NCBI GenBank assembly: GCA_019058295.1
Contig: JAHPZI010000001.1
Span: 60,686 to 124,685, forward strand
Length of the DNA stretch: 64,000 nucleotides
Source: Promethearchaeota archaeon
GTDB lineage: Archaea; Asgardarchaeota; Lokiarchaeia; Sigyniarchaeales; SOKP01
Direction: 5' to 3'
Shown: piece by piece, positions 2,559 to 60,729 of the stretch
Position numbering within the stretch: position 1 is the stretch's first letter
Layout of the letters: each line of letters begins with the position of its first letter
Notes under the pieces: generated by a model
The model's database searches: none
Told to the model about the DNA's origin: nothing
Seen by the model: only the letters and a program-made list of their open reading frames with translations
Translations under genes and position numbers: made by a program

Positions 2559-2886
2559 ATAATAAAAGAAAGGGTTAAATCCAAATTAAATTAATTATTA
2601 TGCTCAAAAAATTTATTGAATTCTTCTTAAATATTATATTCTTGAACAAATTATATCAAGCTATAAATCTCATTAGAAATAATTATGAATTAATTCCGTA
2701 AAATTAATAAAAAATCGATAGTAAATGCTTTAATAAAAGAATGAAAAGGGGGAAAAAAAGGAGAAATAACCAAATATATAAATATCTTTATATCTTAAGA
2801 GTAAAATGTAGATATAAACAATTAATTACTATTAAAAAACCAATTAAAAAACATTAGTATATTTGGTTTTGAGGGATTGTGATAGA

Positions 2887-8638: not shown

Positions 8639-9799
8639 ATGTCTGAAAATATACCCAAAGAAATCATTGGAATCGCTAAAGCGTCAGAATGGATTCATAT
8701 AAAACAATTTATAAAAGCTCTCTTAGAATTGACGCTTGATACCAAAGAAGAATATTCCTTTCTTGCCCTCAATGCCTCAATTAATAATAAAAAGCATGAA
8801 GAATATGATGCTCAAATTAAAAATAAAGATCAAATTGAATTACTAACATCTATTACTGATTTTGAAAAAATTTCATTATATCAATATTCTGAGTATAAAA
8901 GAAATATCATTAACCTCTCCAAAGATAAGCAAGTAATAGTTCTTACTGCTCAATATATGGGACCTGAGATTGATCACACTAACTATTTCGATTTTACCAT
9001 CTATTTAGATAGTTTTGATCTTCCCTATTTCAGCGATAATAAAGGAAATATCTTTGATTGCCACGAGTTAATGGAAATCATTAGTAAATTCAAACCTGGT
9101 GCGAGAAAAAAAGTAATAAAACGAGAGAAGCCTAAAAAACCAGTAACCTCCAAATCTGAAATTGATACCTATGAGAGATTAACTGAGAAAAATGCTATAT
9201 GGAGCGATCATGAAACGAAATCTTTTCAAAAGTGGAAAATGAGAATCCAAAAAAGATTTAGGGAGGAAACAGGGGGAGTTCCTTATTTTAAAGGAAAAAT
9301 TACTCAAAAATATAAACTATACTTAAATAATCTCGTTAAAAAACCAAAAGGAAAAAAGCCAGTAAAAAAGAAATCCGTTACTAAAGAAAGAACGGTAAAA
9401 AAACCAGCTGTGATGAAAAAAGTAAAAAAACGAGAGAAGCCTAAAAAAACAGTAACCTTCAAACCTGAAATTGATACCTATGAGAGATTAACTGAGAAAA
9501 ATGCTATATGGAGCGATCATGAAACGAATGCTTTTCAAAAGTGGAAAATGAGAATCCAAAAAAGATTTAGGGAGGAAACTGGGGGGCTTACTTCTTATAA
9601 AGGAAAAATTACTCAAAAATATAAACTATACTTAAATAGTCTTGTTAAAAAACCTAAAGCTGAAAAATCAACAATAAAAAAGCCTGCTAAAAAGAAACCA
9701 GTAGCAAAAAAGAAACCTGTTGCTAAAAAAATAACGGTAAAAAAGCCTGCTAAAAAGAAACCCGTTGCTAAAAAGAAACCAGTAGCTAAAAAGAAATGA
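8639..9799 (+). CDS. basic protein with duplicated ~80-aa domain and histone-H1-like Lys/Pro/Ala tail
   Basis: Near-identical internal repeat at 309-nt offset; C-terminal KKPAKKKPVAKKK repeats. Confidence 0.75.
   Translation: MSENIPKEIIGIAKASEWIHIKQFIKALLELTLDTKEEYSFLALNASINNKKHEEYDAQIKNKDQIELLTSITDFEKISLYQYSEYKRNIINLSKDKQVIVLTAQYMGPEIDHTNYFDFTIYLDSFDLPYFSDNKGNIFDCHELMEIISKFKPGARKKVIKREKPKKPVTSKSEIDTYERLTEKNAIWSDHETKSFQKWKMRIQKRFREETGGVPYFKGKITQKYKLYLNNLVKKPKGKKPVKKKSVTKERTVKKPAVMKKVKKREKPKKTVTFKPEIDTYERLTEKNAIWSDHETNAFQKWKMRIQKRFREETGGLTSYKGKITQKYKLYLNSLVKKPKAEKSTIKKPAKKKPVAKKKPVAKKITVKKPAKKKPVAKKKPVAKKK
9107..9653. repeat. intragenic direct duplication (~240 bp, two copies)
   Basis: ~9107-9344 vs ~9416-9653, e.g. 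gaaattgatacctatgagagattaactgagaaaaatgctatatggagcgatcatgaaacga in both. Confidence 0.9.
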
Positions 9800-12933: not shown

Positions 12934-14604
12934 TTATCGCCATTCAGCTCCACACATGCCACATTTATATTTCTTACCGTATAATCCTGCCACAGCTGAA
13001 ATAATTTTGGTCTTGTCAGGCATTTCTCGAATGAGCAGTTTATTAGTATTTCCGCATTTCGGACATAATCTTCTCCCAGTAGACGATTCAAGAATTACTT
13101 CTTCTTGTTCTTGAGTTGAGGTAGGTTCACTCGTTTCTGATAATTTTTCTGATTCCACAAGTTCCACAGGTTCCAAAAGTTCGCTTGGTTCGCTTATTTC
13201 ACTTGGTTCGCTTATTTCACTTGGTTCGCTTATTTCACTTGGTTCACTTGGTTCAAATTTGGGCGGAGGTGAGATTTCGGGCTCACTTGTTGGCTCTTCA
13301 ATCCATTCGCTTATTTCAGTTTCTTCGCTTTTTTCAGGCTCTTCGCTTAGTTCACTTGCTTCATCATAGGAAAGAGGTAAGGTTTCGGGCTCAATCGCTT
13401 GCTCTTCAATCCATTCGCTTATTTCAGTTTCTTCGCTTTTTTCACTTACTTCTTGCTGTGGAATTTGGCCAGATTCTTCAATTGAATCTATAACTTGATC
13501 TCGTGCTTTTATTCTCTCTTGTACAATTCCTTTAGGAATTGAGATAACATTTTGATCCTCCATTACATTAGTTTCGGGAGCCACATGTTTCGATTCTACA
13601 TCAACATGTAATAAAAGTGCTGCTTTTAACATCTTATTTTTTTCATCTAGATTTTTGTTTTCATTCTCTAATTCAGCAACTTTTTTTTCCAATTCAATAA
13701 TATTATTTTCATAATTAGTAATAGTTGATTGGTCAATTGCAGGAGTTTGTTCGATTTCACGTAAAGCTTTGTTTTTCTCTTCTAAATCGGAAATTGTTTC
13801 AAGTAATCCATCAATTTTATCCTGCAGGTCAGCAACGATTGCCTCTCGTTCAGATTTCATTTTTTCTATATTTTTGCTATGTGTTTCATTGACTTCTTCT
13901 AAGGAGGAAATTTGATCCACATATTCAATAATTTTAAGATTCATATTATCAATAACTTCTTGGTTGATTTCTACACTATCGATAACTTCTTGAAGTTTTT
14001 CTTTTTCCTCTTCTAAATCAGCAATTTTTTTATTTAAGCCAGCAATTTCATTTTCAAAATTTGATTTTTCTTCCTTTAGGGCGTCCACTGAATCCAAGTC
14101 ATTTTCTACTACTGAAGTATCTTTTGCCGTATCCATATTTTGTAGAAGTATTTCATTTTTCTCCTCCAAATCAGCAATTTTTTTATTTAAGCCAGCAATT
14201 TCATTTTCAAAATTTGATTTTTCTTCCTTTAGGGCGTCGATTAAATTCAGGGCATTCTCAAAATTTGAATTTTCTTTTAACTCATCAATGATTTTTCTAG
14301 ATTTTTCAAGTTCCGATTTTAATTCATCAATTTTAGATTCCAACGCTTTAATATTACTCTCTTTTTTGCCTATTTCATCTCTTTGCGACGTAACCATATC
14401 CTTTAAGATTTTGACGTCTTCCGCATCAACGCTCATACTTTTAGAACTAATATCGTTTTCTATAATTAATGATTTCTGCTCCGGTATTTGCCCCCCCAAA
14501 CTTATAATCTCGTCTTGTAATTGTTTAATAGTGTTTTCTAATTCTAAACGATGTTTCAGTTCTCGTTCTGCTGATTCAATAAAATCTTTTACCTCTTTAC
14601 TCAT
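12934..14604 (-). CDS. long coiled-coil protein with acidic repeat linker and C-terminal zinc ribbon
   Basis: Heptad-rich N-terminal ~330 aa, EPSEIS repeats, CPKC...CGMC. Confidence 0.75.
   Translation of the reverse strand: MSKEVKDFIESAERELKHRLELENTIKQLQDEIISLGGQIPEQKSLIIENDISSKSMSVDAEDVKILKDMVTSQRDEIGKKESNIKALESKIDELKSELEKSRKIIDELKENSNFENALNLIDALKEEKSNFENEIAGLNKKIADLEEKNEILLQNMDTAKDTSVVENDLDSVDALKEEKSNFENEIAGLNKKIADLEEEKEKLQEVIDSVEINQEVIDNMNLKIIEYVDQISSLEEVNETHSKNIEKMKSEREAIVADLQDKIDGLLETISDLEEKNKALREIEQTPAIDQSTITNYENNIIELEKKVAELENENKNLDEKNKMLKAALLLHVDVESKHVAPETNVMEDQNVISIPKGIVQERIKARDQVIDSIEESGQIPQQEVSEKSEETEISEWIEEQAIEPETLPLSYDEASELSEEPEKSEETEISEWIEEPTSEPEISPPPKFEPSEPSEISEPSEISEPSEISEPSELLEPVELVESEKLSETSEPTSTQEQEEVILESSTGRRLCPKCGNTNKLLIREMPDKTKIISAVAGLYGKKYKCGMCGAEWR
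13184..13255. repeat. 18-bp tandem repeat x3 plus two 9-bp half units
   Basis: cttggttcgcttatttca x3 then cttggttca x2, encoding EPSEIS units on the minus strand. Confidence 0.9.
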
Positions 14605-15927: not shown

Positions 15928-15991
15928 CCATAGTTAGAAAAAGTTCTATAAATAATTCAAATTTATTCTAAAAAAGTATTAAATGATTTAT

Positions 15992-16876
15992 TTATTTCAT
16001 TTTAGCGATTTCTTCGTTTATTTGTCGCATACGCTCCTCTATACTTTCAATACCCAATTTTTGCGCAAATTCTTCAAGTTTTTCTGTATCTTGGTCTAAA
16101 ATTCTTCTCCATATTAACCCGCCATCAACGACGAGAGCATGCCCAGAAACAAAATTAGAATCCTCACTAGCTAACCAGAGAGCAGCTTTGGCGATGTCTT
16201 CCGGGAGACCAGCTCGTTTAATTGGTTGTATCTCATTTAAAAGGATTTTTGCCAATACTGCTAACCGTTCTGCCTTATCTTGTGGCAATCCGATTCCTTT
16301 TCCAAAGATTGGTGTTGCAATTCCTCCAGGACAAATAGAATTCACACGAATATTATGTTCACCTACTTCCTCAGCAACTGTACGAGTTAGATGGATGATT
16401 GCTGCCTTGGCAGCGCTGTAAACATGAGGTGCCATGCCAGTTCTGAGTCCTGCCACACTGGCAGTGCTAATTATACAACCCGATCCTTGTTTTTTCATCA
16501 CTGGAATTGCATTTTTCATTCCGAGAAATACGCTGCGGAACATTACTTCCATAGTCACATCGAATGCATCTGTAGGTATATCTTCAATCGGCCCTCCAGC
16601 ACCTCCAAAACCTGCGTTATTAAACATAACATCAAGGCGTCCGAATTTTTCCACAGCAAAATCGATGGCAGCCTTGATTTCAGATTCATTACGTACATTC
16701 GTATGAAGATATATCGCATTTGATCCGAGCTCTTCGGCAAGGGCTTTACCTCTCTCATCTTGTATATCGCCAAATATAACACGAGCTCCCTCTTCAATAA
16801 ATAGACGAACAGAGGCCTTACCTATACCACTTGCTCCACCTGTTATTATAACTACCTTATCATCAAGTCTACCCAT
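15992..16876 (-). CDS. short-chain dehydrogenase/reductase
   Basis: TGGASGIG, NNAG, YSAAK. Confidence 0.9.
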   Translation of the reverse strand: MGRLDDKVVIITGGASGIGKASVRLFIEEGARVIFGDIQDERGKALAEELGSNAIYLHTNVRNESEIKAAIDFAVEKFGRLDVMFNNAGFGGAGGPIEDIPTDAFDVTMEVMFRSVFLGMKNAIPVMKKQGSGCIISTASVAGLRTGMAPHVYSAAKAAIIHLTRTVAEEVGEHNIRVNSICPGGIATPIFGKGIGLPQDKAERLAVLAKILLNEIQPIKRAGLPEDIAKAALWLASEDSNFVSGHALVVDGGLIWRRILDQDTEKLEEFAQKLGIESIEERMRQINEEIAKMK

Positions 16877-49703: not shown

Positions 49704-51449
49704 TTATTTCTTAGCAAACGGTTCAAGATCCAAATCCATAAAAATACCATCGTTAGATTCGAGTGTTCCTAAAAAGTGCCATTCCCCCTCATCAACGTGA
49801 GCGCCTTTACCATAGAGTTCGGCCATTTTATATAACCTATCAAAATTTTCATAGTGTAAAGCAACTCTATTTTCAGCATAATCTCTTGCTGACCAAGTCG
49901 TCATTAAAAATTGCCAATCACTACTTTCCAAAAGTAAAAGCTCTCGCGCCATTTGTTTTAATATTTTCAATAAATGTTCATCAGCATTATCTTTATATTT
50001 CGCAATGATCTCTTCACTCTTACCTTCACACTCATAAATCTTCTCCCATGTCCAAGTTGTCCATTCATTCAACCACACCCAGTGAGAACTTGCTTGTCCC
50101 CACGAGCCTTCAATGATCTGTACAACTTTATTTGGCGGATTTTCTTCGAGATAAAGCCTTGTGTTAGTTAATTCTATTTCAGGATCATCTTCTATCCATC
50201 TTAATACTCTCGCTAACCACCAATTTCCTTCAAACCACCAATGCCCAAATAATTCACAATCATAAGGAGCAACAATAATTCCGTTGTTCCCAAAATTATT
50301 TTTATAATCTCTCAAGATATCCTTAATGAGATTAACATAATGACTTCCATTTTCATCTAATTTTCTTGGAACATCATCTGGCCAATATAACATTTTTGCA
50401 CCAAGGTCTACTTTTGCACCAGTTACCTTCCAATATCGTAAACCCCCAGGATAGTGCTTTTTATGGAAATCTAAATATTCAGCACAGCCAGGATAACCAT
50501 GTTCACCTGACCATACCACAATCCCTGTCTTTTCATCCCTTGTAAAGAATCCAACAGGGGCTGGGGTAGATGGATCTGTAGATACTAAATAAGCTTCATA
50601 TTGTGATTTTTCAAAAGAAGTGGGAATTTCTTCATATTGCGATTCAAATTGTTTCCAGAGTTCTTTAAGTAAAGGAAACCTCGCAGCATAAACACCTTGG
50701 GACTTTCCACCTAATAAAAGGGTAGTATCAATAAAAAAATATTTAAGACCATTCTTAGCGACAAAATATTCAACCCCAGGTCGTTCATATTCTTCTCTTG
50801 AAATAGGGTTTTTCCATCGATACCCAGGACGATAGCCACATTCTGGAAGCCAAACTCCTGTAGGGGCTCTCCCAAAATGATGTTTATAATTATCAACTGC
50901 TGTTTTAAATTGAGCATCAATTGAAGTATCTTTAGATAATAACGGGCAATATCCATGAGTAGCACCACATGTGATAATATCGATCAAATCCATATCTTGG
51001 AGTTTTTTAAAAGCACCAATGATATCTCTATTAAATCTATGAAGAAAATCGTCTCTTACTCGTTCGTAAAATTCCTCCCACCATTTTGTTAATCTGATTC
51101 TACCTTCTTCAAATTTATTTCTCGTAAAATCGTCGTGATCATGAAATGCTGCACTTACTTTCTCGTCTAAGTAACCGAGGAACCCATTAATGAAAGATGG
51201 ATGTCTAAGCATTTCGCATAATACTGGTGTGAGTCCAATAGTTAATTTAGGATGATATCCATCATCAATCAATTTGTAAAGTTCTTGAAGCAATGGGATA
51301 TATGTCTCTGCAGTAGCTTCATTTACCCAGCTAGTTCCGTGTGGCCATATTCTGGATTATGTGAGAAAAACACATAATTTTCCATGATTTAAGACCCACG
51401 GAAGGTGAGAGTGAAGAACTAAACAAAAACTTCCCAATTTCTCTGGCAT
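49704..51449 (-). CDS. GH57 1,4-alpha-glucan branching enzyme, interrupted by a 30-nt insert (571 aa if removed)
   Basis: ATG 51449 gives MPEKLGSFCLVLHSHLPWVLNHG, in frame with WPHGTSWVNEATAETYIPLL and the 529-aa ORF; catalytic WLPEC and PYDCELFGHWW intact; in-frame TAA at 51357-51359. Confidence 0.9.
51350..51379 (-). other. putative 30-nt BHB-like mRNA intron in the branching enzyme gene
   Basis: TGGA-AAA-TTATGTG-TTTTTCT-CACATAA-TCCA-GAA; removing 30 nt restores HG-x-WPHG; boundaries ambiguous by 1-2 nt. Confidence 0.75.
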
Positions 51450-51696
51450 AAAAACAAAAATACGCAATTTCTTAATAATTTTGCCACATTCAATAAATGC
51501 TAAAAATCTCTAAAAAAAGCACAATTAATCGATTTAATTAATTTAAAATCAGTTTTTTTATTTTACTTTTCATTTCTTAAATACTGTGAGATTTTCTTTT
51601 TTTTTAAAAAACAGAAAAATTTAAGAACTTAAACCATATGCAATTAATAATATATATCCAATTGAAATTGAAAAGAAAATATAAATATTTGATTAA

Positions 51697-53079
51697 ATGG
51701 TTGAAAATCTTAAGGAACTTGCAAAGAACGGACGGATCATCGGAAGGGCTAATTTTGTGTTCACGCCAGAGATAGCAAGTAGCATAGGTTCAATTCATGG
51801 TAGTTTATTCAAGCAAAATGAATCTATAGTGATGGGGAGGGATTATCATAATGATTCTAGAATGCTTAAGCGAGGATATACCTCAGGTTGCATGAGTACT
51901 GGAGTGAATCTGTTAAATTTATCGGATTGTGCATATCCTTTATTACAATTCACGATTCGAAGATTTGGAGCGAGTGGGGGTGCTTATTTTTCGGCAGGGC
52001 ATTTATATAGTGAAGATGTTGGAGTAAGATTTGTTGATGCAGGGGGAATTGAATTATCTTCTTTAGAAATTCAAAAAATAATCAATGCTTATAATAATTA
52101 TCCTGAGCAAATACGTAGAGTTGAGCCAAACGAAATTGGTCAAATTACTTCAATCCCTCAGACTAAAGAGATTTATATTAAATCTTTACAGCAATTTATG
52201 AACAAGAAAAGAATAAGAAAAGCGGATCTTAAGATTGTAGTTGATTGTTCTTATGGTCCTAGCGGTAAGATTACGCCATTGTTATTAAATGAGATTGGGG
52301 TAGAGGTCATTGCATTAAATACACATTACCGTCAGAGATCGAGGAATCCAGTTCCCAACATTCATACTATTAGAAACTGTGCAGATATTGTGAAAGCGTC
52401 CAATAGTCATCTTGGTGTATGTTTTGATGTCGATGGTTCCAGAATTCTGGTGTTAGATGAAAGTGGATTAGAAATAAATTTTGAAGATTTACTAATGCTT
52501 TTTATATCTTATGACGAAAGGATAACAAAATCTAAAGCAAACACCATTATAACTACTCCTACAATTTCTTCAACCGCAAAAGATTTTATCAAAGAATCTG
52601 GATATCCATTAAAGGAAGTTGAAAATTATCCTGGAGAGATTTCTAGAAACATTAGACAAGAACGGGCTTGTTTTGCCGCGGCGGATACATTAAAATTTTA
52701 TTTTCCTGAATTTGCTCCGTTTAGCGATGGAAACTTCATTCTTTTAAAGCTCCTTGAAATAATGACTATTCAGGAGGATTTATTAAGTTCATTGACTAGA
52801 GGGTTCCCGAAAGGTATAAAGGTAAATAAATCAATTACAGTCTCTCAAGATATAATTGAAACTTTTCACAATCAATTAAGAAAAGCTGTTGAGGAAAATG
52901 GTTTTAAATATCATGATATCATAAATGAATTAAAGATTATTGACGAGGAGCAAAAAGTTTGTACGCAGGTAAAAATTTCTTTATACAGAAATGCGATACT
53001 TCTTTCTGCAGAATCTGAGAATGTTAACGCAGCGAAAACTATGATAACCGAGCTTGAGAAAATGATTGTTAATTTATAA
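51697..53079 (+). CDS. phosphohexomutase (PGM/PMM)-fold protein with degenerate active site
   Basis: MGRD, KIVVDC.YG, FDVDGSR; expected TASHN is SAGHL. Confidence 0.75.
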   Translation: MVENLKELAKNGRIIGRANFVFTPEIASSIGSIHGSLFKQNESIVMGRDYHNDSRMLKRGYTSGCMSTGVNLLNLSDCAYPLLQFTIRRFGASGGAYFSAGHLYSEDVGVRFVDAGGIELSSLEIQKIINAYNNYPEQIRRVEPNEIGQITSIPQTKEIYIKSLQQFMNKKRIRKADLKIVVDCSYGPSGKITPLLLNEIGVEVIALNTHYRQRSRNPVPNIHTIRNCADIVKASNSHLGVCFDVDGSRILVLDESGLEINFEDLLMLFISYDERITKSKANTIITTPTISSTAKDFIKESGYPLKEVENYPGEISRNIRQERACFAAADTLKFYFPEFAPFSDGNFILLKLLEIMTIQEDLLSSLTRGFPKGIKVNKSITVSQDIIETFHNQLRKAVEENGFKYHDIINELKIIDEEQKVCTQVKISLYRNAILLSAESENVNAAKTMITELEKMIVNL

Positions 53080-53208
53080 ATCAATTTTTATAAAAAAGAT
53101 TTCTACTATTTTAATTTCTTTAAATAAGAATTAAAAGTTTAAAAATACTTGAGATTTAATAATAATAATATAAATTATATTAAACTAAAAAATAAAAAGA
53201 TGTGAATC

Positions 53209-53910
53209 ATGGCAGTAGATGCAGCTGGAATGATCTTTTTGGTATCATTTTTTATAATATGGGGAGTCTTCCTGATCTGGGATTTCTTTCGTAGAATTTC
53301 ATGAATCTCTCATGAAGTACGCAAAGGAGAAAAATATGGCTTCCTAGCTTACATATTAGCTGTAATTCCAGTTAATATGTTATGGGGGTTCGGTTTCAAT
53401 ATTTTAGGTGTTTATATTGTCCTTTTTGTATTATGGATAATTTGTCTTTTTCGTGATTTAATCTTAGTATATGGCAAAACAAAAGAATATGATGATATAT
53501 TGCTATTTTTAGGAATTGGAATTCTAATTCAAGTAATTTTAACAGGAATACTGCCATATATGAATGAAAGTATGCAAACTAATTGTGTGGCAGCCTGGGT
53601 CTTTTGGTTTCCTGATGTTTATAATCCAAATACAAATGCTATACAAAGTTGGGTTAATGCTAACTATCTATTAGGATTTAGAGTAGCAGCAACAGGCATG
53701 GTAATATTAGCTATTTTACCAATGATCTTAGATTTATACTACACGGAAGAACATGTTAATCTTTTAGCAATAATTATTATAGATTGTGTTTTTGTGGCCC
53801 CTTTTCTCTGGCTGGCATACGTTTGGATGGGAGGCATCGGTTGGCCATTGACTTTCTTATTTGCGGTGCTTTTATTTATAGTTTTATTACTATTAACAAG
53901 AGAGAGATAA
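53209..53910 (+). CDS. multi-pass membrane protein, interrupted by a 30-nt insert (223 aa if removed)
   Basis: ATG 53209 encodes a first TM helix (MAVDAAGMIFLVSFFIIWGVFLIWDFFR) in frame with GEKYGFLAYILAVIPVN and the 177-aa ORF; in-frame TGA at 53302-53304. Confidence 0.8.
53295..53324 (+). other. putative 30-nt BHB-like mRNA intron in the membrane protein gene
   Basis: CGTA-GAA-TTTCATGA-ATCTC-TCATGAAG-TACG-CAA; same geometry as, and 17/30 identity to, the 51350-51379 element. Confidence 0.72.
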
Positions 53911-54029
53911 TTAAATATCTTTTTTTTATTTTTTTTTTGTTTGTTATTAAATTTTTTATGCTTATTTTTATATATAATTATAGGTTAAAGAGTGATAATC
54001 TAAATTTTAATTAAAAAAGAGATTTTATA

Positions 54030-55025
54030 ATGGCAAAAAAAAAAGGTCAATTAGATACGGATGATGAGGTCAATGAGTCAAATCTTAATAAAACCTACTC
54101 TTTAAAAGATTTACCGGGAGTAGGAGAAGCGACTTTAAAAAAATTAAAAGAGGCTGGAATTACATCTATTAGATCCCTTGCGATGGTCCCCAAACAATCA
54201 TTAATGGATGATGCGTCCATTGGCGAAAAGACAGCTGAAAAATTAATTAAACTTGCCCAAGATATTGAAAAAATGGGATTTAAATCAGCCAATGAGATTT
54301 GGGAAAAAAGAAAAGGATTGAAAAAATTGACTACGGGAAGTCAAAATTTGGACGAATTGTTAGCCGGGGGTATAGAAACAGGGGCAGTAACAGAGATTTT
54401 TGGGGAATATAGAACAGGTAAGACTCAGCTTGCTCATCAACTTTGCGTTAATGTACAATTAAAAGAAGAGGAAGGAGGCCTTGAAGGTAGCGCTTTATAT
54501 ATAGATAGTGAAGGAACATTTAGACCTGAAAGAATACTTCAAATGGCAGAAGCAAAGGATTTGGATCATAATAAAGTATTAAAAAATATTACAATTGGAC
54601 GAGCGTATAATAGTGACCACCAGATTCTCTTAATAAAGGATGCTCCAAAAATCATAGAAGAAAAGAATATTAAGGTAATTATTGTTGATTCGCTAATTAG
54701 TCATTTTCGCGCCGAATATATTGGAAGGGGTACACTTGCCTCTAGACAGCAAATATTAAATAGCCATATTCATGATTTATTAAGATTAACCGAAACTTAT
54801 GAATTAGCCGCCGTTTTTACAAATCAAGTCTCATCTAGACCAGATGTTTTTTATGGGAATCCTATAACCCATACCGGAGGTCATATAGTCGCCCATGGTG
54901 CTACTATTAGAATTTATTTGAGAAAAGGAAAAGGAGAGCAGAGAGTTGCTAAAGTTGTTGATGCTCCTCATTTACCAGAAGAAGATGCTGTTTTTTCTAT
55001 AACTGAAGATGGTATTGGAGATTAA
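54030..55025 (+). CDS. radA: DNA repair and recombination protein RadA
   Basis: N-terminal Hh[34 protein letters not shown]; no intein. Confidence 0.96.
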
Positions 55026-55036
55026 AGATTAAGTTA

Positions 55037-55588
55037 TTATGTGTCCACTGCGATATAATCCCATTCTTCATTCTCTTTAATTAACCATTCTAATGCATAA
55101 TGCCATTCATAAATAATAGAAGGATCATAGCCATCTGGGAGTTCCTTATCATTAATTTGGGCATCTCTTAATTCCCAGTTGATTCTATAAATACGTTCAA
55201 ACATATCTATAATCTCCTCTGGATCTCTTAACTGAACATTTTGTGCATCAATTTTAGAATAAAAATCATCAGCTTTTAATACCTCTTTGATCTGCTCTAA
55301 ATTAATTTCATCTTTAGGAATCTCCGAGAAATTAAAATGATTCAAAGCCCATAACAAAATATACACTGCTTCTGCTCGCCAACCTAATTGCAGAGCAATA
55401 AATCTTGAATCCTCTTCCGGACTGAGGAGAAAGTTTTTTTCATTTTCAGAAACTTCAGACCAAAGGTCCTTATCTTTGAGAATTTTTATAACTTCTTCTT
55501 TTTTTCTTCCAGTTGCAGCTTGGAATACTCCAATTAAAACCTTTATTCTTCGGGCAACTTCTTTGGGGTTTCGCATATTGAATCTCAA
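55037..55588 (-). CDS. DUF4272-like protein
   Basis: EVARR, WR.EA...LLWAL, E.H.ALEWL....WD...DT. Confidence 0.65.
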   Translation of the reverse strand: MRFNMRNPKEVARRIKVLIGVFQAATGRKKEEVIKILKDKDLWSEVSENEKNFLLSPEEDSRFIALQLGWRAEAVYILLWALNHFNFSEIPKDEINLEQIKEVLKADDFYSKIDAQNVQLRDPEEIIDMFERIYRINWELRDAQINDKELPDGYDPSIIYEWHYALEWLIKENEEWDYIAVDT

Positions 55589-60123: not shown

Positions 60124-60729
60124 TTGATGGAAAAAAAGGAAAACATTCAGATTTCGCTTGATAATATCAACGAAGATGATATCCCGGATAAAATTCCAAC
60201 GAAATTCATTAATTCGAGAGTTGTCATTTTTAATCCTCTTTATGCCTCTTACTTGTATGTGAAGGAAAAGTTTTTTGGCTCTCCCCTTGGAATAAGTAAA
60301 CCGCGCCTTGAGTATTTCTCAAAACCTTCGGAATTATCGCTTATTGAAGCTTATTACCTATTAGAAAATGATAAGATTACTATTTTTGATGTTAAAAGAG
60401 AAAAAGATCTTAGTGCTAAGGAATTTTTTGAAATTGCCAAACAAATACACCATAAATTTGAGGAAAAATATGTAATTTATAAAGATTTAAGAGAAAAAGG
60501 ATATGTTCCTCGACCAGGGCTGAAATTTGGAGCTGATTTTGTAGTATATAAGAAAGGACCAGGATTAGAGCACTCTCCCTTTATTGTACACGTATTACCT
60601 CATGAATCTAAAATTAGTGCAATCGATATGGTCAGAGCTGGAAGATTAGCTACATCTGTTAGAAAAAAATTTGTTATTGCAAATCCCCAAACTATAAACT
60701 ACTATTTTTTTACGTGGTTTAAGCCATGA
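60124..60729 (+). CDS. endA: tRNA-intron (BHB) splicing endonuclease
   Basis: LSLIEAYYL, Y.DLR.KGY, GLKFGADF.VY..GPG..H, R...SVRK (Tyr/His/Lys triad). Confidence 0.92.
   Translation: MMEKKENIQISLDNINEDDIPDKIPTKFINSRVVIFNPLYASYLYVKEKFFGSPLGISKPRLEYFSKPSELSLIEAYYLLENDKITIFDVKREKDLSAKEFFEIAKQIHHKFEEKYVIYKDLREKGYVPRPGLKFGADFVVYKKGPGLEHSPFIVHVLPHESKISAIDMVRAGRLATSVRKKFVIANPQTINYYFFTWFKP

What the first reader, a model, noticed from the sequence alone, without database searches (positions are those of the whole stretch)
53295..53324. Second copy of the insert interrupts a membrane protein gene directly upstream of radA
Seen: ATG 53209 encodes a TM helix ending WDFFR, then RIS*ISHEVR, then KGEKYGFLAYILAV in the same frame. 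The TGA lies in the 5' arm of the hairpin TTTCATGA/TCATGAAG. Removing 30 nt gives WDFFRRGEKYG or WDFFRKGEKYG, a plausible short basic loop between helices. Flanking exons can also pair (tttctt with gagaaa). Inference: same mechanism as in the GH57 gene. The ORF track truncates this gene by 56 codons.
Basis: partly seen in the sequence, partly recalled or inferred. Interest (0 to 1): 0.88.

Follow-up and report, generated by a model that had tools for sequence, protein, structure and literature searches.

The report
tRNA-type mini-intron in Asgard membrane gene
A 30-base hairpin carrying a stop codon splits a conserved membrane-protein gene of an Asgard archaeon, and it has the shape and cut sites of the introns that archaea remove from tRNAs, so the mRNA most likely has to be cut and rejoined before the protein can be made; in print this is described for only one archaeal protein gene (cbf5).

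Summary
A 30-nt insert (window 53295-53324) with an in-frame TGA splits a 223-codon membrane-protein gene (ATG 53209, stop 53910).

- **Orthologs:** they are full length in 39 of 41 related Asgard genomes. Only G000, G007 and G005 carry the insert. All others lack exactly these 30 nt and read FRRGEKYG, which is the product predicted by cutting after the second base of each bulge.
- **Fold:** the insert folds as a slightly relaxed bulge-helix-bulge (BHB) motif.
- **Enzymes:** the genome encodes a two-subunit (alpha-beta) tRNA-splicing endonuclease, and the catalytic subunit lies in this window. The RtcB ligase was not found in this 79%-complete genome but is present in its closest relatives.
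- **Other cases:** I verified at least nine more inserts of the same build in this genome, of 29-31 nt plus one of 54 nt. They sit in GH57, ArgG, an HMG-CoA-synthase-like gene, actin (two), iorB, a Fe-S protein, a cold-shock gene, and less clearly uS11. Removing each restores a conserved motif.
- **Conservation:** the ArgG insert recurs in another genus with a compensatory stem change. The inserts come and go between near-identical species.
- **Gap:** no RNA read covers this intron, so splicing is inferred.

This scan has already noted the same phenomenon in at least 56 other genomes. Some of those notes report RNA support, which I did not check.

The parts
53209..53294 (+). Exon 1 of the membrane-protein gene: 28 codons plus 2 bases, one TM helix, ending ...WDFFR + AG
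   Evidence: The N-terminal stretch aligns to orthologs in related genomes from residues 1-8.
53295..53324 (+). 30-nt BHB-type mini-intron with in-frame TGA (53302-53304)
   Evidence: It is exactly the gap in the alignment against orthologs of G002, G006, G003 and G008. It was found independently by a geometry-first scan of the whole genome. It is identical in G007 and G005.
53325..53910 (+). Exon 2 of the membrane-protein gene (about 5 further TM helices, no Pfam family), including the stop codon
   Evidence: Conserved in 39 of 41 relatives.
53289..53292 (+). 5' strand of the central helix (U)CGU, in exon 1. It pairs with ACG(C) at 53319-53322: three pairs plus one U.C mismatch at the outer end.
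53293..53295 (+). 5' bulge AGA. The predicted cut is after 53294 (AG^A).
   Evidence: Unpaired in every fold. The same A-R-A bulge occurs in ArgG, actin and the Fe-S gene.
53296..53318 (+). Intron hairpin: 9-bp stem (53296-53304 with 53310-53318) and 5-nt loop
   Evidence: It is the centroid structure.
53319..53322 (+). 3' strand of the central helix ACG(C), the last paired bases of the intron
53323..53325 (+). 3' bulge AAA. The predicted cut is after 53324 (AA^A). In the constrained fold the bulge is 4 nt (CAAA).
53283..53289 (+). Exon-1 strand of the outer exon-exon helix UUUCUUU, pairing with GGAGAAA at 53326-53332
   Evidence: the BHB conformer is -17.4 kcal/mol against an MFE of -19.0.
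53326..53332 (+). Exon-2 strand of the outer helix
51350..51379 (-). Sister 30-nt BHB mini-intron (in-frame TAA) in the GH57 branching-enzyme gene (49704-51449, minus strand)
   Evidence: It is absent from G007, G004 and G010, whose sequence equals the predicted spliced product.
60124..60729 (+). Gene for the catalytic (alpha) subunit of the tRNA-splicing endonuclease EndA, the proposed cutting enzyme
   Evidence: Pfam tRNA_int_endo at 5.9e-31 plus the N-terminal domain. A second paralog, 28% identical and lacking the His, lies on contig C26.

Best explanation
The 30 nt at 53295-53324 are an archaeal bulge-helix-bulge (BHB) intron inside a protein-coding mRNA.

**Shown**
- The DNA carries a 30-nt insert with a stop codon.
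- Close orthologs lack exactly these bases.
- The transcript can fold into four stacked elements:
  - an exon-exon outer helix;
  - a 3-bp (nominally 4-bp) central helix, made of the last bases of exon 1 and the last paired bases of the intron;
  - one A-rich bulge on each strand;
  - a 9-bp intron hairpin.

**Inferred**
- The heteromeric (alpha-beta)2 splicing endonuclease cuts after the second base of each bulge (AG^A and AA^A). Its catalytic subunit is encoded 7 kb downstream.
- An RtcB-type ligase joins the exons. The Arg codon AG|A forms across the junction, and the mRNA encodes the 223-aa protein with ...WDFFRRGEKYG....
- The 30-nt intron is released, probably as a circle.
- Unspliced mRNA would give only a 31-residue peptide.

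This intron is one of a small population in this genome: at least ten members, mostly 29-31 nt. They are gained or lost precisely between closely related species.
For: **1. Exact indel.** Orthologs in G002, G006, G003 and G008 lack precisely 53295-53324 and read F-R-R-G-E-K-Y-G. This equals the product of the canonical BHB cut rule. G007 and G005 carry the identical insert with both exons open.

**2. Geometry-first detection.** A whole-genome scan defined cut sites only from helix and bulge geometry. It recovered this insert and also the GH57, ArgG, HMG-CoA-synthase-like, actin and Fe-S inserts. Each one restored a conserved motif in frame.

**3. Split codons.** In ArgG the invariant Asp of SGGLDTS exists only as G|AC across the junction. 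Only nucleotide-level joining can make it.

**4. Covariation in the sister ArgG intron.** The copy in another genus (G012, host protein 75% identical) shows:
- one compensatory A-U to G-C change;
- three wobble-compatible changes;
- no disruptive change;
- invariant bulges and central helix.

**5. Presence/absence with exact boundaries.**
- The GH57 intron is in G000 only.
- The HMGCS-like intron is in G000, G007, G005 and G002 but not in G006.
- The intron-less sequences equal the predicted spliced products.

**6. Machinery.**
- Two EndA paralogs of about 200 aa each. One has the catalytic His and one lacks it, which is the broad-specificity alpha-beta architecture (PMC5829648).
- RtcB is present in G007, G006, G002 and G005.
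- A bona fide tRNA-Pro intron of this genome has the same arrangement.

**7. Folding.** Unconstrained folds give the outer helix, bulge and hairpin arrangement for eight of the nine inserts folded. uS11 and, in part, the HMGCS-like insert do not fold canonically. For this insert the BHB conformer lies 1.6 kcal/mol above the MFE.

**8. DNA.** Contigs of two samples contain the insert with no intron-less allele.
Against: - No RNA evidence exists here. The one RNA run that holds parts of this locus does not cover either intron.
- The motif in this gene is not textbook. The central helix has 3 pairs plus a U.C mismatch, and the 3' bulge is 3-4 nt. In the MFE the three A's are paired.
- The three copies of this particular intron are identical, so it offers no covariation test of its own.
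- Exon 1 differs between G000 and G007/G005 mainly by amino-acid-changing substitutions: about 3 nonsynonymous to 1 synonymous in 86 nt. Relaxed constraint on exon 1 cannot be excluded.
- RtcB was not found in G000 itself, which is 79% complete.
- A control with shifted cut registers showed only a weak genome-wide excess of frame-restoring hits at the canonical register: 26 against 14-21, and 13 against 4-7 under a stricter filter.
Confidence: 0.78

Rival explanations
1. Programmed translational bypass. The ribosome takes off at the Arg codon CGU (53290-53292), skips 30 nt, lands on CGC (53320-53322) and resumes at AAA, as in T4 gene 60 or the 'byps' elements of yeast mitochondria. The product would be WDFFRKGEKYG.
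For: Two synonymous Arg codons lie exactly 30 nt apart. A hairpin and a stop codon lie between them.
Against: - Orthologs read RRG, not RKG.
- The stop is not adjacent to the take-off codon.
- In the sister inserts bypass cannot produce the conserved residues. The ArgG Asp and the HMGCS-like, Fe-S and iorB junction codons are split across the junction, and GH57 and ArgG have no matching take-off and landing codons.
- The 29- and 31-nt members and the RtcB insert follow the bulge cut rule exactly.
Confidence: 0.04
2. A recent disruptive insertion. Either the gene is a pseudogene, or it is now expressed only from Met 53377 as a 177-aa protein lacking the first helix.
For: - The insert is confined to three very close genomes and is identical in them.
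- The few exon-1 substitutions are mostly nonsynonymous.
- An ATG at 53377 opens a 177-codon ORF.
Against: - Both exons stay open and in one frame in all three genomes.
- The insert length is a multiple of three.
- Its ends fall exactly at BHB cut positions.
- Inserts of the same build sit inside indispensable motifs of ArgG, actin, a Fe-S protein and, in relatives, RtcB. One of them is conserved across genera with a compensatory change. This class of insert is therefore tolerated because it is removed.
Confidence: 0.08
3. The insert is removed from the RNA, but by machinery other than EndA/RtcB. Examples would be another structure-specific endonuclease acting on the internal loop between the exon-exon helix and the hairpin, or a self-cleaving fold.
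For: - This insert and the HMGCS-like one deviate from the canonical 4-bp/3-nt rule.
- The uS11 insert does not fold as a BHB at all.
- The narrow size class (29-31 nt) and the A-rich bulges are not features required by EndA.
Against: - Several members are textbook BHB motifs: the Fe-S gene, actin intron 1, the cold-shock gene, and RtcB of G002.
- Alpha-beta EndA enzymes are known to accept relaxed motifs (PMC5829648).
- No other candidate enzyme was seen.
Confidence: 0.07
4. Recoding: TGA is read as Sec or Trp, or read through, and the ten residues stay in the protein.
For: The insert is in frame and contains a single stop.
Against: - Orthologs lack the ten codons altogether.
- Sister inserts carry TAA, TAG, two stops, or shift the frame.
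- TGA ends ordinary genes here.
Confidence: 0.02

Closest known systems
BHB intron in the cbf5 pre-mRNA of Crenarchaeota (Aeropyrum, Sulfolobales, Desulfurococcales; PMC2738675)
   Same: An intron inside an archaeal protein-coding sequence, with a bulge-helix-bulge motif at the exon-intron boundaries. It is removed by the tRNA-splicing endonuclease, and it is patchily gained and lost among relatives.
   Different: - A different phylum (Asgard/Promethearchaeota).
- A different gene: a membrane protein of no known family.
- Many genes per genome rather than one, in a narrow size class of about 30 nt with A-rich bulges.
- Splicing has not been shown experimentally here.
Archaeal tRNA and rRNA BHB introns cut by EndA and joined by RtcB
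   Same: The same geometry as the canonical 37/38 tRNA intron:
- the central helix is formed by the last exon-1 bases and the 3' part of the intron;
- the cut falls after the second base of each bulge.

This genome's own tRNA-Pro intron is built this way. The genome has an alpha-beta EndA.
   Different: - The host is an mRNA, so the cut must preserve the reading frame.
- The exon half of the motif is coding sequence.
- Here the central helix has only three pairs.
Unconventional splicing of XBP1/HAC1 mRNA in eukaryotes (IRE1 plus RtcB or Trl1)
   Same: A very short intron (26 nt in XBP1) is excised from a coding mRNA by a protein endonuclease that recognises stem-loops. The exons are joined by RtcB without a spliceosome.
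   Different: - The endonuclease is IRE1, not EndA.
- The motif is twin stem-loops, not a BHB.
- It is regulatory and stress-induced.
- There is no evidence here that splicing is regulated.
Translational bypass elements (T4 gene 60; 'byps' in Magnusiomyces mitochondria)
   Same: Short structured inserts of 27-55 nt with stops inside otherwise intact genes, absent from orthologs.
   Different: Those stay in the mRNA and are hopped over between matching codons. Here the junction codons are split, and the boundaries follow the BHB cut rule.

Membership tests
Archaeal BHB intron (EndA substrate) | [quoted passage not shown] | tested here: inconclusive
   The 5' bulge AGA is clean. The central helix is CGU/ACG plus a U.C mismatch, so 3 pairs. 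The 3' bulge is AAA, or CAAA in the constrained fold. This is a relaxed (HBh'-like) form. Sister introns in the Fe-S gene, actin, the cold-shock gene and G002 RtcB meet the rule fully.
Archaeal BHB intron (EndA substrate) | Flanking helices: an intron-internal helix on one side and an exon-exon helix on the other | tested here: met
   A 9-bp intron hairpin and a 7-bp UUUCUUU/GGAGAAA exon-exon helix.
Archaeal BHB intron (EndA substrate) | Cutting after the second base of each bulge gives the functional product | tested here: met
   The cuts remove 30 nt and create AG|A. The product FRRGEKYG equals the intron-less orthologs.
Archaeal BHB intron (EndA substrate) | Splicing endonuclease and RtcB ligase encoded by the organism | tested here: inconclusive
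   EndA alpha and beta are both present. RtcB was not found in G000 (79% complete) but is present in G007, G006, G002 and G005.
Archaeal BHB intron (EndA substrate) | Structure maintained by compensatory change | not testable with these tools
   The three copies of this intron are identical. The test is met for the sister ArgG intron: one compensatory pair, three wobble changes and none disruptive.
Archaeal BHB intron (EndA substrate) | Intron absent from mature RNA | not testable with these tools
   The only RNA run holding the locus has 151-nt contigs on the GH57 and PGM exons and none over either intron.
Programmed translational bypass (gene 60 / byps) | Matching take-off and landing codons, with a stop directly after take-off | tested here: not met
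   CGU and CGC are synonymous but not identical, and the next codon is AGA, not a stop. The product would be RKG, whereas orthologs have RRG. The sister ArgG insert needs a split codon.
Transposable element (MITE or IS remnant) | Repeated copies with terminal inverted repeats and a target-site duplication | tested here: not met
   No second copy in the window at up to 3 mismatches. Inserts share 9-17 of 30 bases. Each carries 4 nt complementary to its own upstream exon.
Stop-codon recoding (Sec, Trp, readthrough) | Orthologs keep the codon position with Cys, Sec or Trp | tested here: not met
   Orthologs lack all ten codons.

The most novel reading that the evidence does not exclude
This Asgard genus carries a dynamic population of EndA-spliced introns of about 30 nt in protein-coding mRNAs.

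- They are inserted or lost precisely between species whose proteins are 85-98% identical.
- In 8 of 9 cases in this genome the exon ahead of the cut ends in AG or AA (iorB ends in AT).
- They often lie 57-86 nt after the start codon.
- They occur even in the gene for the RtcB ligase that must join them, which could form an autoregulatory loop.

That would be a prokaryotic system of mRNA intron gain and loss in the closest relatives of eukaryotes.
Probability: 0.5. Interest if true: 0.9.

Novelty: new variant of a known kind. Interest (0 to 1): 0.77.

Why it matters
In the literature I could search, endonuclease-type (BHB) splicing of an archaeal coding sequence is documented for one gene family, cbf5 in Crenarchaeota. 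A 2026 preprint on Asgard tRNA introns does not mention mRNAs.

- **What is new.** Here at least ten protein genes of one Asgard genome carry such introns. They include actin, argininosuccinate synthase and this membrane protein. The introns differ in presence between near-identical species.
- **Consequence for annotation.** If they are spliced, standard gene callers truncate or split these genes, and pseudogene counts are inflated. This gene loses 46 real codons.
- **Consequence for evolution.** The closest archaeal relatives of eukaryotes would routinely interrupt coding sequences with introns removed by enzymes that eukaryotes also inherited (TSEN, RtcB). Intron gain and loss would then be directly testable in a prokaryote.

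Tried and rejected
**RNA evidence**
- One RNA run (X19) and one probable-DNA 'metatranscriptome' (X20) were laid on 49704-55100. X19 covers parts of GH57 and PGM only, and nothing lies over 51350-51379 or 53295-53324.
- An X20 contig ends its match exactly at 51350 and continues with a diverged exon 1 without the insert. It comes from a relative, not from spliced RNA.

**Genome-wide census**
- Structure-plus-ORF filters gave as many hits with a decoy pairing rule as with real pairing.
- Hexamer coding scores did not remove gene-boundary false positives.
- The shifted-register control showed an excess only in the 29-31-nt class.
- I therefore report a verified minimum, not a total.

**Covariance model**
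- Model R1 was built from three introns. It finds the independent actin, Fe-S and ArgG introns at only about 17 bits, mixed with noise. It was not used for counting.
- MAFFT could not align seven introns structurally.

**Other points**
- uS11: a 30-nt deletion restores PYAAMQ, but I could not fit a canonical BHB to it.
- RtcB: no hit in G000 itself.
- 'Second copy' as sequence homology: 17/30 identity is not significant after correcting for 15 comparisons.
- Several scan hits were judged to be adjacent genes or non-coding upstream sequence, not introns. They were the proteasome alpha subunit, a DEAD-box helicase, KatG, and the hydrogenase small and large subunits.

Full report
**Observation.**

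- From the ATG at 53209 the frame reads one hydrophobic helix ending WDFFRRIS.
- It then meets TGA at 53302-53304 and continues in the same frame as ISHEVRKGEKYGFLAYILAV... to the stop at 53910.
- A plain ORF list starts the gene at 53377 (177 aa).
- The TGA sits in the 5' arm of a perfect 9-bp hairpin: 53296-53304 pairs with 53310-53318, with a 5-nt loop.

The window is about 31% GC. It encodes RadA, Arf- and Rag-type small GTPases and a GH57 branching enzyme. Its relatives in public records are Asgard (Promethearchaeota) MAGs such as AMARA_1S and TEKIR_6S.

**Orthologs settle the gene model.**

I read the TGA through and searched 41 related genomes in six frames.
- 39 have the gene. Nearly all full-length matches start at residues 1-12 of the long form, so exon 1 is part of the gene.
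- Only G000, G007 (95% identity) and G005 have a stop inside.
- G002 and G006 (86-87% identity) and all more distant orthologs have an open frame ten codons shorter.

In the DNA alignment the gap is exactly 53295-53324. The intron-less genes read TTT AGA AG|A GGC GAG AAA, that is F-R-R-G-E-K. The insert is identical in the three genomes that have it.

DNA contigs from two sediment samples carry the insert and show no allele without it. One of these contigs is from a G007-like variant strain.

**Anatomy.**

Read 5' to 3', the elements are:
- UUUCUUU (exon 1);
- CGU;
- the bulge AGA;
- the 9-bp hairpin;
- ACG, pairing back to CGU;
- C, then AAA;
- GGAGAAA (exon 2), pairing with UUUCUUU.

This is the arrangement of a canonical archaeal tRNA intron. 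The central helix is made of the last exon-1 bases and the 3' part of the intron, and one bulge lies on each strand.

The rule derived from the canonical 37/38 tRNA intron is to cut after the second base of each bulge. I checked this rule on the genome's own tRNA-Pro. Applied here it gives AG^A and AA^A. That removes exactly 30 nt and creates the Arg codon AG|A, so the product matches the orthologs.

The motif is slightly relaxed.
- The fourth central pair is a U.C mismatch.
- In the unconstrained MFE (-19.0 kcal/mol) the three A's pair with U's.
- The conformer with both bulges open costs 1.6 kcal/mol more.

**It is one of a family.**

I scanned the whole 3.2-Mb genome with a rule that fixes the cut sites from geometry alone, then asked whether removal joins two open frames. 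The scan returned this insert and the following others.

| Gene | Place | Length (nt) | Restored sequence |
|---|---|---|---|
| GH57 | window 51350-51379, minus | 30 | HG\|IWPHG |
| Argininosuccinate synthase | C2:55238-55267 | 30 | YSGGL\|DTS, with Asp as the split codon G\|AC |
| Thiolase-fold HMG-CoA-synthase-like gene fused to a DUF35 domain | C7:54449-54478 | 30 | VAK\|AWDFP |
| Actin | C2:177067-177097 | 31 | TFHR\|MWVTR |
| Ferredoxin-type protein | C17:37729-37757 | 29 | CVVACA\|EGA |

Following leads from earlier notes of this scan, I confirmed four more by eye and by folding.
- iorB: 31 nt, restoring GSE|MHG.
- A cold-shock gene: 54 nt, restoring GHVK|WFD.
- A second actin intron: 30 nt, no stop, restoring RRE|YKEMGP.
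- A uS11 insert: 30 nt, whose fold I could not make canonical.

The shared features are:
- a central helix of 4 positions with 3-4 pairs;
- a 5' bulge of A-(G/A/U)-A;
- a 3' bulge of A-(A/U)-N;
- an inner hairpin of 7-9 bp in most members (only 4 bp in iorB, two hairpins in the 54-nt insert).

Sequence similarity among the inserts is low, at 9-17 of 30 bases. Each one carries four bases complementary to its own upstream exon. They are therefore not copies of a transposon.

**Comparative evidence that the structure is functional.**

- **ArgG intron.**
  - It is present at the same site in G000, G007, G005 and in G012, a different genus whose protein is 75% identical.
  - It is absent from six other genomes of G000's own genus.
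  - The G012 copy keeps both bulges and the central helix unchanged.
  - Its stem differs by one compensatory pair (A-U to G-C) and three wobble-compatible changes, with none disruptive.
- **GH57 intron.**
  - It is present only in G000.
  - On the syntenic G007 contig that does carry the membrane-gene intron, GH57 is uninterrupted and reads HGIWPHG, the predicted spliced product.
- **HMGCS-like intron.**
  - It is in G000, G007, G005 and G002.
  - It is absent from G006, which is G002's close relative.
- **RtcB.**
  - In G002 and G006 the RtcB gene itself has a textbook 29-nt member: central helix TTGG/CCAA, bulges ATA and AAA, and an 8-bp stem.
  - It is absent from G007.

These inserts therefore sit in indispensable motifs of intact, conserved genes. 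They appear and disappear with base-exact boundaries.

**Machinery.**

The genome has two EndA paralogs of 201 aa each, 28% identical.
- One, in this window at 60124-60729, keeps the catalytic His.
- The other, on C26, lacks it.

This is the alpha-beta heterotetramer type, which is reported to accept non-canonical motifs (PMC5829648). It has also been reported in most Asgard genomes (bioRxiv 10.64898/2026.10.13.758758).

RtcB was not found in G000, which is 79% complete. It is present in its four closest relatives.

**Rivals.**

- **Translational bypass.** It is conceivable for this gene alone, because the Arg codons CGU and CGC lie 30 nt apart. But it would give RKG instead of the orthologs' RRG. 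It also cannot make the split junction codons of ArgG, iorB, the Fe-S gene or the HMGCS-like gene.
- **Dead gene, or re-initiation at 53377.** For this gene it is not formally excluded, because the few exon-1 substitutions are mostly nonsynonymous. It does not explain the exact BHB boundaries, the preserved frame in three genomes, or the family.
- **Recoding of TGA.** It is excluded by the orthologs.

**Limits.**

- No RNA read covers the intron, so excision is inferred.
- My attempts at a complete census failed against background noise. The count is a verified minimum of about ten.

**Relation to what is known.**

The papers I could search describe BHB splicing of a coding sequence only for cbf5 of Crenarchaeota (PMC2738675). 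They also describe a 5'-UTR case in Haloferax (PMC7714728). None describes it in Asgard archaea.

Earlier notes of this scan report the same phenomenon in at least 56 other genomes. Some report exactly spliced environmental RNA. I did not check those reports, and they are not counted as evidence here.

Noticed in passing
L031:1475-1503 (G002:C3, about 15991-16019); the same in G006:C13: The RtcB ligase gene of G002 and G006 is interrupted by a textbook 29-nt BHB insert. It has central helix TTGG/CCAA, bulges ATA and AAA, and an 8-bp stem. It lies inside the GVGY|DINCG motif. G007 has the gene uninterrupted. The ligase would be needed to splice its own mRNA.
   Followed up: partly
L043 (G012:C95), about 2660-2690 minus strand, compared with G000:C2:55238-55267: The ArgG intron is shared by two genera but missing in six genomes of G000's own genus. 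This means repeated exact loss, or transfer of the intron between lineages.
   Followed up: partly
window 51350-51379 (-) compared with L045 (G007:C100): The GH57 intron is present in G000 only. G007 lacks it on the same syntenic contig that keeps the membrane-gene intron, so gain or loss happened between genomes whose GH57 proteins are 92% identical.
   Followed up: yes
G000:C22:30303-33335: An array of 27 intron-less tRNA genes covering nearly all amino acids lies within 3 kb. Most other tRNA genes of the genome are scattered, and many have introns. It may be a mobile element, a viral insert or a binning contaminant.
   Followed up: no
G000:C16:12782-14988: ARAGORN calls a 'tRNA-Stop(tta)' with a 2114-nt intron. 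It is either an artefact or a tRNA gene with a very large insert.
   Followed up: no
window 53209-53294; G000:C2 ArgG; C7 HMGCS-like gene; window GH57; C22 cold-shock gene: Five of the ten verified introns lie 57-86 nt after the start codon. Exon 1 ends in AG or AA in 8 of 9 cases in this genome (iorB ends in AT). The sample is small and no test was done.
   Followed up: no
window 13162-13470 and 9092-9790: Two repeat regions inside ORFs: 9-nt periodic repeats on the minus-strand ORF 12934-14604, and Lys/Pro-rich 63-nt and 300-nt repeats in ORF 8639-9799. Both encode low-complexity repeat proteins.
   Followed up: no
G000:C1:158861-158890 (-): The uS11 gene has a 30-nt insert with TAA. Deleting it restores PYAAMQ, but its best fold puts the 5' junction inside a helix. 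It is a non-canonical member or is processed differently.
   Followed up: partly
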